Made by a program: the position numbers. From contig JBEPZZ010000064.1 of NCBI GenBank assembly GCA_041640575.1, positions 1 through 9,893 on the forward strand: a DNA stretch of 9,893 nucleotides, given 5' to 3'. The stretch's first letter is position 1, and each line of letters opens with the position of its first letter. Source of the DNA: Pseudothermotoga sp. (GTDB taxonomy: Bacteria > Thermotogota > Thermotogae > Thermotogales > DSM-5069). This document shows positions 1 through 9,893 of the stretch, piece by piece.

Positions 1-3000
1 GACATTGAAACCCAGAAGGCTCAAAATATGCCGTTGCAATCCGTATGACGTTTGCTGGGGCAAGCGTGGTGCTGATGCAGTTGAGCGCGGCACTATTTCC
101 GCGGAAGAAGCGCTTACTGATATCGCTAGCTGATAATTTCATACATCCAGCATTCGGTAACTTTAAAGAACTAGCTCATCTCAAAAAGCTGTGTTGGCGT
201 GTTTGTGTTTTCTGTGAGGTAATGACGTGCAGAGGAAATTATCCGACTAATGGATTAATCTCTCTAAACTAGCTGCAGCGCTCTCTAAGTCTATGTGATT
301 GCTACAATATGCAGTGCGCAGCAAGCTCTCAGGCACGTAACGATCATACTTGTTCATTTGCAGCATCTGGCGAGTTAGTTTCTTAATAAGTTCATGTGGT
401 TGCGGGATGTTCCGCAAAATAGCTTTGATTCGTTCCTTGAGAAGGTCGAGTGAGCTGATTTCAGCTTCTAAATAAAATGGATGAGAAAGTATCTTGATAC
501 CACCGTACTCCAACAGCAGCTTGATCGTGTTGATTTCCCGGGTCCCTTGCCACGGAAGCAGCATAAATCGCCCCCCGCCCAAATCTAGAATTGGCTGCGT
601 GGTCATATGGCTGGAATGTGCTAATTCACGGGCAGATTTCAATCGGCGGATGGCTTTGGTATGGAGATAGCTGTAAATGGTATCTTCTTTCAAGATACGG
701 CAAATGCTCTGGGAAATCCGTGTATGGATTGTTCTATCACCTCCAGTCCAATGGGCTTGTGCTTTTCCTCTTACACGTTCAACATGGATGATCTTTTTAT
801 CTTCATCAACATCAATGACTTTCCATGCACGACCAGCTAGCCGAAACCGGTCTCCAACAATGGGAAGCGACTGAACACTACCAATTTCCCGTGTTCCCTC
901 CCGCACCATATAGCCGGTTTCATCTTCAAATGTTGCATAGAAACGGTAATGGTTGACAAGACGTTCACCAGCCCTGCCGATAATCAGTCCACCACCCTCA
1001 ACGCGTTCTAGATGTTCAATTTGAAGAAGGTAACGAAGTAGTTCACGAAAATGGTCGAGAGACACTTGGTTAAAAGGAGACAAAGAGAGAACTTGTTCAG
1101 CCAGCTCAGGTGGTGTAAGCTCTGTTTGGGCCGTAATGATGCTCATTGTCTGGTGGTACAGGATACTTGTTGGTAAAGTGGGAATGTCGGGTGGCTCTAT
1201 CCATTTCTCTTCAATATAGAGTTGGATAATAGCTATTGTCTGTAGCAATCCCCATGGAATACGTTCTCCCAGAGTTGCATTTGGTTTTGGTTCATTCTCC
1301 GAAGAATAAAAAAACATTTTGGCATCGCCACCTCGACGTCCAGATCGACCCAAGCGTTGAACAAAACTGGAAACGGTGTTAGTTGCGTTTAATTGCAGTA
1401 CCTGATCCAAACTGCCTATATCAATACCCAATTCAAGCGTAACGGTCGCTGCAACACATGCCTTTTTGTTCGGGTCACGCATATCTTGTTCAGCGCGTTC
1501 CCGAAGCGTGGCCGAAATACTACCGTGATGGACATAATAACTGTCCTCATCTTCACCTTCCACACCCGCGAGGCGACGCAGGTTATGTATAATTTCCTCA
1601 GCAGCATTACGGCTGTTGGCAAAAATAAGTGTTTTGCGGTTACTATCAACTAATTTCGCCATATGTTGAAACATTTCAGCTGTTTCATCGACTACAGGCT
1701 CATCTGATAGCTCCTCCTCTGATGCAGGCTGTATCGTCAAAGATGCGCTTGCGTCTCCTACATCCGTCTGTGGTGATTCTTCATCAGATCCATCCACCCA
1801 ATCATCTTCTCTTGCTCTGATGAAGTGTTCCAGACCAAGCATGACTTTGCGGCGGCTCACAATATCATTAATATGAGTAACCTGACAATCAGTTCCACCA
1901 GCTAGCCATGCCGATGCTAATGTAGGTTCGCCAAGTGTGGCAGAAAGACCAATGCGACGCGCTGGTCTCGTCTGATATCGAGCCAGTCGCTGTAGTTGGC
2001 ACAAAACCTGCCGTCCTCGATCACTGCCAATGAGCGCATGGACTTCGTCCAGAACGACATAGCGCAAATCACCAAATAAACGGCTCAACTCTGTCTGGCG
2101 ATTAATGAGCATTGCTTCGAGAGATTCGGGGGTAATTTGGAGAATGCCTTGCCCGCTGCGAAGAAATCGTTGTTTTTTGCTCTGTGAAACATCTCCGTGC
2201 CAGCTTTGAACAGGTATGCTGCTGTCTTCTAGTAACCTTTCCAGTCGATGAAATTGATCGTTGATAAGCGCTTTGAGCGGGCCAATATACATTGCACCAA
2301 TTGATGACGATGGACGCTCAAACAGATCTGTCAGTATCGGCAAGAATGCAGCTTCAGTTTTGCCGCTGGCTGTTCCACTTGTAATCAAGACATGGTTTGG
2401 CGTGTCAAGGATGGCGCTGATGGCATCAACCTGTATGGGACGCAATTCCTCCCATTTTTCTCGGTAGATGAAATCCTGTATGAACGGAGCCAAGCGATAA
2501 AACGGATTCGTCATAACTCGAAGCTCTTGTAAGGTGATGCTGCGCTATCATCTTCATCGACTATCTCAGTTTCTGCTGTGACGGCTTCAGGATCACGTTC
2601 TACCCGTGAGGGTGTGAAGTCTTTATCAGCGACAACACCATCAAAAGATAAATCGGAATTTTGATACAATACATTTAATACTGCAATGAAATCCCGAACA
2701 ATCTCACGAGGCGTAAGTCTTTGCTCAGCGCCTAAGCGCTTACGAACCTCGTTAAGAAAAAACTCGATCTGCTTGTCTGTAACCGCGGATGTGTAAGAAT
2801 AGTGCAAAGCATGAATTCCACGGATACGTTGAAGAAGCACGAAAATTTCTTCAGGAGTCAGTGGTTCCAGCCGGAGTAATGGCCCTGAAAGATCCCGAAG
2901 ACCATTACGAGCGAAGCGGCTTTCCTCCAGTCGGGTGCGCAGCGCCTCGTAACTGAACAAACCGCGTCGAGTGTCCTCAACCATTTGAGGGGTCGCTCCC

Positions 3001-9000: not shown

Positions 9001-9893
9001 TGCATCTGATTGTTTACGGATTTTCTGGTCTTGGACAGGGAAGGCTGAATCTAGAATGGCTATCCATTCCGACGGTAATTCGATGCCTTTTAATGTTCCT
9101 CGATAGTTTTGCTGACGTCTCAATCGGTTTTCGATATATTTCAAAGTCGAGGCCATAGCGTTACGCAGATCACTGGCGTTGAGCCAAGCTGGCACATTGG
9201 CAACAGTGATCATTCCATGCTTTCCTTCATAAATAGCTCCTGTAAATGGATAGCGTTTGATTTGGTGTACATCGACCGGACGGTAATAGTTGAACAAAGT
9301 TTTTCCATGCTTTTGACGGAGATATTTATCAATGATATCTAATCCGCGACGGAGTTCCCGATCTATAACTCCGTTGTTATTATGCTGTTGATAGAATTTA
9401 CTATTTGTGTATTTATGACCGCTGATTAATTCGAGCATATCACTAGATAAGTGCATTAAGTTTGCACTACCATCAGACAATAAAGCTTCTATCAAAAGAT
9501 TCCGATCAGTTAGGTGTCCACCGCGTTTAATGGCATAGGAATACCAGTTCATCGGTGTCTGCGGTAGTCTATAGACAACTATAAAGTCTGCTAACCAGTC
9601 GATAAGGTAGCTATCCAGTTCTGGATGCTTTACTCGATAGCGCCTCCAGATATTTGCTAGATGCTCAAAAGCATCCTCCGCTGAGTCAAACCCAATAAGA
9701 TGTATAACCTCGTAAACGTGCAGAAATATATAACTTAGGTCAGTGGGTAAATAGCTGCTGTGCCTTACTTGTGAGCGCCAGTAAAAATACCATTTGCGTT
9801 GAGCACTATTCATGGACTCATATGTGGGCCAGTATTGCTTAAAAGGCGCTGGGTCAGCCTGTCGTTCAGTCGTATTAACAAATTTTTTCGCCT

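What a model noticed while it worked through the whole genome (the two positions that open the first line are those of the whole stretch)
247..9891. Shango defence operon with a Rad50/Mre11-like pair inserted between sngA and sngB
Five co-directional genes on C64 (minus strand): a TerB_N protein (g01619, SngA), a metallophosphoesterase (g01618), a 1098-aa SMC/Rad50-like ATPase (g01617), a BrxD-like ATPase (g01616, SngB) and an Lhr-like helicase (g01615, SngC). I read it as a five-gene variant of the Shango anti-phage system in which an SbcCD-like module has been recruited as the DNA-cutting effector that three-gene Shango lacks. It would give a handle on how Shango acts, which is not known.
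Evidence so far: Call 57 (PADLOC): g01615 SngC 784 bits (E 4e-236), g01616 SngB 610 bits (E 5e-184), g01619 SngA 220 bits (E 2e-65); g01617 only weak LmuB/AriA/GajA-type ATPase matches; g01618 none. pfam.tsv: g01618 Metallophos, g01617 AAA_15/AAA_23/AAA_27. genes.tsv: overlaps or gaps under 20 nt, except 236 nt between g01619 and g01618. Call 166 (neighbours.tsv): BrxC_BrxD beside AAA_27 in 14, beside AAA_23 in 91 and within two genes of Metallophos in 89 of about 13,000 genomes that bear both, so the junction is rare but recurrent; BrxC_BrxD in 0 of 57 other Thermotogales genomes (35 of 150 in the phylum). The housekeeping sbcCD is elsewhere (g00841, g00842 on C17).
(Added by a program. Inside this text positions count along the whole contig: contig position 1 is position 1 of the stretch shown here. 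"Call 12" and the like, gene names such as g00115 and contig names such as C1 are that model's own, and its searches are not shown. The text may have been shortened before it was handed on; [...] marks where a part breaks off. The agent that wrote the report below was given it as the finding of a first reader that could run no searches.)

Follow-up and report, generated by a model that had tools for sequence, protein, structure and literature searches.

The report
Shango operon with docked Mre11-Rad50 pair
A rare hot-spring version of the Shango anti-phage gene set carries an extra Mre11/Rad50-like protein pair whose ATPase has gained the tail domain of Shango's own first protein, so the pair looks built into the system, but its nuclease subunit has lost key catalytic residues and may not cut DNA.

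Summary
The five co-directional minus-strand genes are real: SngA, a metallophosphoesterase (MPE), a 1098-aa SMC-like ATPase, SngB and SngC.

The inserted pair belongs to the SbcF/SbcE (YhaO/YhaN) branch of Mre11/Rad50. That branch normally stands alone. Of 160 related loci, only one (L002) has SngA beside the pair, and none has SngB.

New here: the ATPase ends in a 160-residue TerB_C module (conserved helix, disordered linker, winged helix) homologous to SngA's (34% identity, E 1e-21). Its roughly 960-aa relatives lack this module. The six tail-bearing ATPases form one clade. This argues that the pair is wired into Shango and did not simply land there.

I read the pair as an ATP-gated DNA-end clamp or sensor docked by TerB_C. 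This is inferred, not shown.

Three corrections:
- The 236-nt "gap" is the decayed 3' end of SngA.
- The window is a whole 9.9-kb contig that is a compositional outlier in its bin, so the host assignment is insecure.
- A sixth ORF starts downstream of SngC.

The docking prediction could not be run. Verdict: new variant of a known kind.

The parts
8503..9891 (-). SngA. It has TerB_N (P0001 residues 1-92) and TerB_C (residues 283-431). Its 5' end is cut by the contig end, and its 3' end is truncated compared with its 78%-identical relative in L002.
   Evidence: PADLOC SngA 186 bits, matching profile positions 111-526 of 528.
8267..8502 (-). Relative to L002 it has a 1-nt insertion that creates the stop, a 91-nt deletion, a 14-nt duplication, a 3-nt deletion and a 29-nt deletion.
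   Evidence: Contigs of other runs diverge at 8312 and 8362.
7172..8266 (-). Mre11/SbcD-fold metallophosphoesterase of the SbcF/YhaO type (364 aa). Motif III reads GSAD where the family has GNHD. Motif V reads GGEH where the family has GHxH. A GAGGTG Shine-Dalgarno-like motif lies before the TTG start.
3895..7191 (-). SbcE/YhaN-type SMC-like ABC ATPase (1098 aa). Motifs: Walker A GPNEVGKST, Q-loop RQSE, signature LSTGTRD, Walker B LLDD, and a central PxKGC motif in place of a CxxC hook.
3898..4434 (-). TerB_C tail of the ATPase (residues 920-1098). It has a conserved helix (residues 937-958; window 4318-4383), a disordered linker, and a winged-helix domain (residues 992-1087; window 3931-4218).
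   Evidence: BLASTP to SngA: 34% identity over 161 residues, E 1e-21. Pfam TerB_C 26.8 bits. Model pLDDT 80. ArsR/SmtB-like winged helix, Z 9.1.
2511..3878 (-). SngB, a BrxD-like AAA+ ATPase (455 aa). Walker A is GRYGSGKS and Walker B is IDEA. It has an acidic C-terminal linker ending in a conserved F-x-L.
247..2514 (-). SngC, an Lhr/BrxHI-like SF2 helicase (755 aa), with GTASGKT, DEVH and QRLGRSGRR motifs.
2..142 (-). Start of a sixth co-directional ORF. Its ATG is at 142, 104 nt after the SngC stop codon. 47 aa are visible before it runs off the contig. Whether it belongs to the system is unknown.
   Evidence: no Pfam hit; nearest named Atlas clusters are PLD-type nuclease N-termini at 0.89 and 0.78, a lead only.

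Best explanation
This is a five-gene variant of the Shango anti-phage system. An SbcF/SbcE-type (Mre11/Rad50-like) pair has become a built-in accessory module. The link is physical. The SMC-like ATPase has gained, at its C-terminus, the TerB_C module (a conserved helix, a flexible linker and a winged helix) that ends SngA. Inferred steps: TerB_C is the plug by which a protein docks onto the Shango core, meaning SngB and/or SngC. Both the membrane-anchored SngA and the Rad50-like clamp would then dock on the same ATPase-helicase motor. The MPE subunit keeps the Mre11 fold, its Rad50-binding helices and one metal site. It has lost the Asn and His of motif III and the first His of motif V. So the pair more likely acts as an ATP-gated clamp that recognises or holds DNA ends or hairpins, such as incoming linear phage DNA, and hands them to SngB/SngC. 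A canonical nuclease role is less likely. What destroys the phage DNA, if anything does, remains open. The unread sixth gene is one candidate. Shown here: gene content, homology of the tail, its absence from stand-alone relatives, the single clade, the active-site losses and purifying selection. Inferred: docking, the partner, the sensor role and anti-phage function.
For: 1. Shango core: SngB 610 bits, SngC 784 bits and SngA 186 bits.
2. Tail homology: P0003 residues 925-1080 match SngA residues 277-435 at 34% identity, E 1e-21. Pfam TerB_C finds exactly two places in the genome, the SMC tail (26.8 bits) and SngA (24.6 bits).
3. The tail is a gain. In an alignment of 17 family members, 6 carry it and 11 (936-1280 aa) end at the ATPase head. 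With the tails removed, the six form one clade (100/100) nested among tail-less proteins. The seven tails (the six plus fragment P0043) form one clade (SH-aLRT 92) inside a 16-row group (97) that also holds the cognate SngA (quick method).
4. The pair normally stands alone. Of 160 related loci (80 from species-representative genomes, 80 from metagenomes), only L002 has SngA and none has SngB. A phosphoesterase homologue is present in 129 of the 161 loci examined, the window's own locus L001 included.
5. Synteny and coupling: L002 has SngA-MPE-SMC in the same order, with the SngA stop overlapping the MPE start. The window has overlaps or short gaps and SD-like motifs.
6. Selection, window against L002: dN/dS is 0.32 for MPE, 0.14-0.21 for SMC and 0.35 for SngA.
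7. MPE fold: Mre11 is the top match (3tho_B, E 5e-14), including the C-terminal helices.
8. Active-site loss: canonical residues are present in 84 of 110 family members. P0002 reads DHD-S-A-H-G-H. All 6 of the 6 closest proteins (57-100% identity) lack N/H of motif III and have GGEH in motif V. Positional equivalence with T. maritima Mre11 PGNHD and LGHIH is shown.
9. Passages of PMC7826289 state that the His above the metal centre is conserved in nucleases of this superfamily, that its mutants are inert in DNA cleavage, and that metal-ligand mutations are critical.
Against: - No binding test was obtained. The complex prediction never ran because the queue was full, so the docking partner of TerB_C is unknown.
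- The TerB_C winged helix could bind DNA and not a protein.
- Only one related locus with context (L002) was recovered. It stops inside the SMC gene, so the full five-gene order is seen only in the window. The contigs of P0006-P0010 could not be read.
- Both copies show damage. The window's SngA has lost its second TerB_C unit through several indels. L002's SMC gene is split into two ORFs.
- The family's Walker B is DD instead of DE and it has no H-loop His, so even its ATPase cycle is atypical.
- The MPE keeps D8, H10, D56, D91, H156 and H187 and has extra His at 189-190, so a one-metal or rewired nuclease is not excluded.
- All 4 Shango loci found in the 401 genomes sampled from the phylum of G152 (L003's genome, titled Anaerolinea) lack the pair, so it is dispensable for Shango.
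- No phage data exist for this variant.
Confidence: 0.55

Rival explanations
1. One reading: the pair is an active SbcCD-like nuclease that serves as the DNA-cutting effector of this Shango variant.
For: The MPE has the Mre11 fold with capping domain and Rad50-binding helices. Motifs I, II and IV, D91 and H187 are invariant. The gene is under purifying selection, dN/dS 0.32. The integration evidence is the same as above.
Against: All 6 of 6 clade members lack the motif III Asn-His and the first His of motif V. These positions are canonical in 84 of 110 family members. The NCBIfam sbcD score is 41 bits against a cut-off of 77.65. Passages of PMC7826289 report that loss of the equivalent His abolishes DNA cleavage in a related enzyme.
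Confidence: 0.2
2. The pair is an independent two-gene SbcEF-type repair or defence module that landed between sngA and sngB and works on its own.
For: Relatives of the pair are stand-alone in 159 of 160 loci. Shango works without it elsewhere. A few relatives sit beside other SF2 helicases without SngA or SngB (L101, L136, L018).
Against: The TerB_C tail is specific to this clade and homologous to SngA's. The genes are tightly coupled on both sides.
Confidence: 0.08
3. The locus is decaying and no longer functional in this organism.
For: SngA's 3' end is degraded by five indels. The MPE active site is degenerate. L002's SMC gene is split. The contig is foreign in composition.
Against: dN/dS is 0.14-0.35 for all compared genes. 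The four other frames are intact. The active-site changes are shared by six proteins down to 57% identity, so they are old and tolerated. The locus is present at depth in 4 runs of 2 studies.
Confidence: 0.1
4. The cluster is a DNA-repair operon of the Lhr helicase plus metallophosphoesterase kind and is not an anti-phage system.
For: SngC scores 231 bits to the ligase-associated Lhr-type helicase model. Lhr-Core and MPE gene clusters are widespread repair operons (PMC7826289 passages). SbcE/SbcF act in double-strand-break repair (PMC2811018 passages).
Against: The Sng models score far above the repair or BREX models: 784 against 456 and 231 bits, and 610 against 181 bits. A TerB_N/TerB_C protein is present. 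Homologous three-gene sets were shown to defend against phages (passages). The distribution is patchy and foreign: 2 of 151 genomes in the phylum.
Confidence: 0.07

Closest known systems
Shango (SngA/SngB/SngC; Millman et al. 2022 preprint 10.1101/2022.05.11.491447; Johnson et al. 2023, PMC10250203)
   Same: A TerB_N/TerB_C protein, a BrxD-like ATPase and an Lhr-like helicase lie in one operon with strong PADLOC matches. Both papers leave the mechanism open (passages).
   Different: Two extra genes sit between sngA and sngB. A second protein carries TerB_C. SngA has a hydrophobic N-terminus and, in L002, a second TerB_C unit.
Bacillus subtilis SbcE/SbcF (YhaN/YhaO; PMC2811018)
   Same: An SbcD-like phosphoesterase gene lies directly upstream of an SMC-like ATPase with AAA_27 (YhaN) head motifs. 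The ATPase has a conserved central domain and no CxxC hook.
   Different: The known pair is stand-alone and acts in double-strand-break repair and competence. It has no TerB_C tail. Bacillales relatives were found among the loci. The MPE here has a degenerate active site.
Mre11-Rad50 / SbcCD
   Same: The MPE has the Mre11 fold (3tho_B E 5e-14; E. coli SbcD 7yzo E 2.6e-11). The ATPase has Rad50-like head motifs.
   Different: There is no zinc hook. Walker B is DD. Motif III Asn-His and the first His of motif V are lost. NCBIfam cut-offs are not reached.
BREX type 2 BrxD-BrxHI pair
   Same: SngB and SngC also match BrxD (181 bits) and BrxHI (456 bits). In the helicase tree of PMC12278908, SngC and BrxHI group in one defence-linked clade (passage).
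   Different: The Sng models score much higher. No other BREX gene is seen on the contig, which is only 9.9 kb long.
Lhr-Core + MPE repair clusters (PMC7826289)
   Same: An Lhr-like helicase is encoded with a metallophosphoesterase.
   Different: That MPE is a 216-aa monomer without a capping domain and with a different sandwich topology (passage). Here the protein is Mre11-like and is paired with an SMC ATPase.
Earlier notes of this scan: an LRR protein ending in TerB_C beside Asgard Shango (e1-5540498, e1-5455357)
   Same: A non-SngA protein next to Shango carries SngA's tail. Those notes propose that the tail docks on SngB.
   Different: The head differs: LRR there, a Rad50-like ATPase here. 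Those are unchecked AI notes, and their docking claim was not tested here.

Membership tests
Shango | SngA: a protein with TerB_N and TerB_C | tested here: met
   Pfam TerB_N 73.6 bits and TerB_C 23.4 bits. PADLOC SngA 186 bits. The gene is incomplete at both ends.
Shango | SngB: BrxC_BrxD-family ATPase matching the SngB model better than BrxD | tested here: met
   SngB 610.5 bits against BrxD 181 bits. Walker A and B are intact.
Shango | SngC: Lhr-like SF2 helicase matching the SngC model | tested here: met
   SngC 784.3 bits against BrxHI 456 bits. Helicase motifs are intact.
Shango | Three adjacent genes in the order sngA-sngB-sngC | tested here: not met
   Two genes (4.4 kb) lie between sngA and sngB. 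All 4 Shango loci found in the phylum of G152 have the SngA-like gene directly before sngB.
Shango | Protection against phages | not testable with these tools
   Shown only for the E. coli and P. aeruginosa three-gene systems (passages).
Mre11/SbcD nucleases | Mre11 fold with capping domain and Rad50-binding helices | tested here: met
   Model pLDDT 87. Foldseek top hits are all Mre11/SbcD, led by 3tho_B at E 5.1e-14.
Mre11/SbcD nucleases | Full set of phosphoesterase motifs I-V (two-metal site plus motif III His) | tested here: not met
   Motif III reads GSAD where the family has GNHD. Motif V reads GGEH where the family has GHxH. The same loss is seen in all 6 clade members. Equivalence with T. 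maritima Mre11 is shown. The assignment of residues to the metal sites is recalled from the Mre11 literature.
Mre11/SbcD nucleases | Score over the curated family cut-off (NCBIfam sbcd) | tested here: not met
   41.2 bits against a cut-off of 77.65. The genome's other SbcD, on C17, scores 121 bits.
SbcE/YhaN SMC-like ATPases | AAA_27 (YhaN) head, long coiled coils, and a conserved central domain without CxxC | tested here: met
   AAA_27 39.7 bits against a cut-off of 22. The family has an invariant central G457-C458 and no CxxC. The family is described in PMC2811018.
SbcE/YhaN SMC-like ATPases | SbcD-like phosphoesterase gene directly upstream | tested here: met
   The two genes overlap by 20 nt in the window. 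A phosphoesterase homologue is present in 129 of 161 loci.
Rad50/SbcC | CxxC zinc hook at the coiled-coil apex | tested here: not met
   The alignment has no CxxC. A single invariant Cys lies in the PxKGC motif.
TerB_C domain (PF15615), on the ATPase | Match to the Pfam model over its cut-off and homology to a bona fide TerB_C | tested here: met
   26.8 bits against a cut-off of 26.3 in the six-frame search. This is marginal, and the domain was not listed in the whole-protein scan. BLASTP to SngA gives E 1e-21. phmmer with the tail finds 89 other proteins, of which 58 carry TerB_N.
BREX (type 2) | BrxD and BrxHI together with PglX/PglZ-type genes | tested here: inconclusive
   No such gene is on the 9.9-kb contig, and the flanks are not assembled.

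The most novel reading that the evidence does not exclude
TerB_C is a general plug through which the Shango SngB-SngC motor accepts interchangeable front ends. In this variant the front end is a nuclease-dead Mre11/Rad50-type clamp that senses free DNA ends of incoming phage genomes. This would make Shango a DNA-end-triggered, helicase-driven system and would name its trigger for the first time. The sixth, unread gene, possibly a PLD-type nuclease, would be the cutter.
Probability: 0.25. Interest if true: 0.8.

Novelty: new variant of a known kind. Interest (0 to 1): 0.6.

Why it matters
The papers read here leave open how Shango senses infection and what it does to the phage (passages). A listing of 2024-2026 papers showed no mechanistic study.

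A natural variant in which a well-understood DNA-end machine has been given SngA's own tail points to two testable ideas:
- TerB_C is the docking module of the system.
- DNA ends or hairpins are relevant to its action.

It also gives a case of an Mre11-like subunit kept under selection after losing catalytic residues. This bears on non-nucleolytic roles of Mre11/Rad50-type clamps.

Tried and rejected
It was never accepted because the queue was full, so there is no result of any kind.
- The metagenome scan chose general Walker-A patterns and returned only distant relatives (30% identity or less over long stretches). It gave no context for P0006-P0010.
- The viral-contig scan found no relative: 64 pattern matches, none confirmed.
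- Plasmids gave one weak hit, 26% identity over 21% of the query.
- L002's genome (G001) has no SngB with this query. That genome is incomplete and the contig ends inside the SMC gene, so this is uninformative.
- No RNA holder was listed among the sequencing runs.
- There is no terminal overlap of the contig and no k-mer link to other contigs of G000, so circularity and neighbours are unresolved.
- The N-terminus of SngA is not found elsewhere in G000.
- The promoter and terminator scans were not above shuffles: 23 sites against 17.7±5.1, and 12 against 8.0±2.9.
- PDB sequence searches found no solved relative of SngA or SngB.
- Anantharaman et al. 2012, the paper that defined TerB-N and TerB-C, is not held. 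What I say of it is recalled. A full-text search for 'TerB-C' with 'TerB-N' found no relevant paper. A search for 'Shango' with 'SbcC' found none describing such a variant.
- The earlier-findings look-ups by place and by sequence returned nothing.
- The word-index search with the tail alone found only the four close relatives.
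Full report
**What is there**

The window is the whole 9,893-nt contig C64 of a 123-contig, 1.97-Mb assembly. Five large ORFs lie on the minus strand:
- SngA, 8503-9891, open at its 5' end because the contig stops.
- A 364-aa metallophosphoesterase (MPE), 7172-8266.
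- A 1098-aa SMC-like ATPase, 3895-7191.
- SngB, 2511-3878.
- SngC, 247-2514.

PADLOC gives SngB 610 bits, SngC 784 bits and SngA 186 bits. The MPE has no PADLOC hit, and the ATPase has only weak LmuB/AriA/GajA-type hits. Pfam agrees.

The junctions are a 20-nt overlap (MPE/SMC), a 16-nt gap (SMC/SngB) and a 4-nt overlap (SngB/SngC). Shine-Dalgarno-like motifs precede the MPE, SMC and SngB starts.

**Three corrections**

- The 236-nt "gap" between sngA and the MPE gene is not intergenic. The only related locus with context is L002, a 6,077-nt contig binned as Saccharibacteria. There SngA runs on for about 115 more residues and its stop overlaps the MPE start. Aligned to L002, the window shows a 1-nt insertion that creates the stop, a 91-nt deletion, a 14-nt duplication, a 3-nt deletion and a 29-nt deletion. 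The lost piece is a second TerB_C-like unit, which is common in the SngA family (consensus of alignment A5; "2 stretches" in many rows). Contigs of other runs diverge from the window at 8312 and 8362, so the population is polymorphic there.
- The host is uncertain. C64 has 43.8% GC against 39.6±0.9% for 139 size-matched chunks of the assembly. None of those chunks is as far from the genome's tetranucleotide profile. The SngB model matches 2 of 151 genomes of the phylum at E ≤ 1e-30, G000 included, and the complete same-genus genome has no match. Close relatives sit in bins labelled Saccharibacteria and Chloroflexota. The contig is therefore either a recent import or mis-binned. The DNA occurs in four hot-spring metagenome runs of two studies, with many strain variants. 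One of these runs may be the source sample.
- A sixth co-directional ORF starts at 142 and runs off the contig.

**What the inserted pair is**

The ATPase matches AAA_27, the YhaN head, over its cut-off, and sources name distant relatives "YhaN". The family alignment shows:
- Walker A, Q-loop, signature and D-loop motifs.
- A family-wide DD Walker B.
- No H-loop His.
- A conserved central PxKGC motif in place of a CxxC hook.

This fits the description of B. subtilis SbcE (YhaN): a unique central domain, no CxxC, and an SbcD-like gene (yhaO, called sbcF) beside it (passages of PMC2811018).

The MPE model (pLDDT 87) matches Mre11/SbcD structures throughout, including the C-terminal Rad50-binding helices (3tho_B, E 5e-14). 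The genome has a separate SbcD on C17.

**The pair normally stands alone**

Two scans gave 80 loci from 185,579 species-representative genomes and 80 from metagenomes. Of these 160, only L002 has SngA beside the pair and none has SngB. A phosphoesterase homologue was present in 129 of the 161 loci examined, the window's own locus included. Three loci (L018, L101, L136) have some other SF2 helicase nearby.

From the Shango side, the SngB model matched 4 of 401 genomes sampled from the phylum of G152 (L003's genome, titled Anaerolinea). All four have an SngA-like gene directly before sngB and no MPE or SMC.

**The link to Shango**

The last 160 residues of the ATPase are homologous to the C-terminal part of the operon's own SngA: 34% identity over 161 residues, E 1e-21. 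A six-frame Pfam TerB_C search of the whole genome finds just these two places, at 26.8 and 24.6 bits against a cut-off of 26.3.

Among 17 aligned family members, six carry the tail (45-100% identity). Eleven, of 936-1280 aa, end at the ATPase head. With the tails cut off, the six form one clade (100/100) nested among tail-less proteins.

A phmmer search with the tail against 1.84 billion representatives found 89 other proteins at E ≤ 1e-3.
- One, P0043, is a fragment of another tail-bearing SMC.
- 58 carry TerB_N with TerB_C.
- 21 show TerB_C only; many of these are short fragments.
- One shows SlyX only.
- Eight show no Pfam family at E ≤ 1e-5.

In a quick tree of the TerB_C columns, the seven SMC tails are one clade (SH-aLRT 92) inside a 16-row group (97) that also holds the cognate SngA. 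They are not resolved as its sister. The tail was thus acquired once, from an SngA of the same Shango lineage, and not recently.

The tail model (pLDDT 80) shows a helix that is conserved across the SngA family (IDxxxVxxLxxESxxVRxRL), a disordered linker and a compact domain. Both Foldseek and an independent aligner place that domain with ArsR/SmtB-type winged helices (Z 9.1, rmsd 2.8 Å over 88 residues). At these scores this shows a fold, not a function.

**The nuclease question**

In 110 family members, 84 have the canonical active-site pattern. The motif III His is present in 97 and the first His of motif V in 90. The window's MPE reads GSAD and GGEH at these motifs. Its five closest relatives (57-81% identity) read GGAD, GRTD, GRSD, GRTD and GQAD, and all have GGEH.

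A profile alignment to T. maritima Mre11 puts these positions opposite PGNHD and LGHIH. From the Mre11 literature (recalled), the lost Asn and His are ligands of the second metal, and the motif III His acts on the scissile phosphate. Passages of PMC7826289 say the equivalent His is conserved in nucleases of the superfamily and that its mutants are inert on DNA.

D8, H10, D56, D91, H156 and H187 are kept. The genes are under purifying selection between the window and L002: dN/dS is 0.32 for MPE, 0.14-0.21 for SMC and 0.35 for SngA. The subunit is maintained but is unlikely to be a canonical two-metal nuclease.

**Reading**

I take the locus as a Shango variant with a built-in SbcEF-type module, docked through TerB_C. 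The module most likely serves as an ATP-gated DNA-end or hairpin clamp, a sensor or tether, and not as the cutter (confidence 0.55). The docking, its partner and the anti-phage role are inferred.

Two earlier notes of this scan describe an LRR protein with the same tail beside an Asgard Shango and propose docking on SngB. This is a parallel lead that I could not test, because the complex prediction never left the queue.

Rivals:
- A decaying locus (0.1).
- An independent insertion (0.08).
- A repair operon of the Lhr-MPE kind (0.07).

**Novelty**

Searches for Shango with SbcC, for TerB-C with TerB-N, and for Shango mechanism papers from 2024 on found no description of such a variant. The paper that defined TerB-N and TerB-C is not held, so it may describe related architectures that I could not see. 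The verdict is a new variant of a known kind. It is rare, being seen in six protein clusters at 90% identity and two loci with context. It is useful because it names a candidate docking module and a candidate DNA substrate for a system whose mechanism the papers read here leave open.

Noticed in passing
window 2-142 (-): A sixth co-directional ORF starts 104 nt after the sngC stop codon and runs off the contig, with 47 aa visible. It has no Pfam hit. The nearest named Atlas clusters are PLD-type nuclease N-termini (NgoFVII-like 0.89; PLDc_2 helicase 0.78), which is a lead only.
   Followed up: partly
window 8267-8502: The 'intergenic' stretch is the decayed second TerB_C-like unit of SngA, broken by five indels relative to L002. 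Contigs of other runs diverge at 8312 and 8362, so structural variants coexist in the population.
   Followed up: yes
L002 3458-6075: In the closest related locus the SMC gene is split into two ORFs (3458-4534 and 4609-6075). This is either a frameshift or an assembly error.
   Followed up: no
window 5818-5826 (P0003 residues 456-458) and the whole SbcE-like family: An invariant G-C within a PxKGC motif lies at the middle of the coiled coil. Walker B is DD instead of DE and there is no H-loop His, in all 17 aligned members. This is an atypical ABC ATPase family.
   Followed up: partly
window 2514-2570 (SngB C-terminus): SngB ends in an acidic, variable linker followed by a conserved terminal F-x-L (F453 invariant in 5 sequences). 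This looks like a short docking peptide.
   Followed up: no
L002 2-730 (SngA N-terminus, P0040 residues 1-240): The related SngA starts with several strongly hydrophobic segments (residues 1-40 and 54-78), which suggests a membrane anchor. This part is missing from the window and from the rest of G000.
   Followed up: partly
L171 10570-13116 (-): The Shango locus with the closest SngB and SngC (53% and 44% identity) has an 848-aa protein before sngB with no TerB_N and only weak pieces of TerB_C. It is another atypical first gene.
   Followed up: partly
L170 4026-7361 (+): A 1111-aa UvrD-helicase/PD-(D/E)XK nuclease gene ends 171 nt before sngA of a canonical three-gene Shango. It may be a neighbour or an accessory.
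   Followed up: no
L101 76-5890; L136 3513-8503: Two stand-alone MPE-SMC pairs have an Lhr-like or other SF2 helicase gene next to them, without SngA or SngB (37% identity over 243 residues in L101).
   Followed up: no
whole contig C64: The contig is a compositional outlier in its assembly: 43.8% GC against 39.6%, and farther in tetranucleotide distance than all 139 size-matched chunks. Its relatives are binned into unrelated phyla. It may be mis-binned or mobile.
   Followed up: partly
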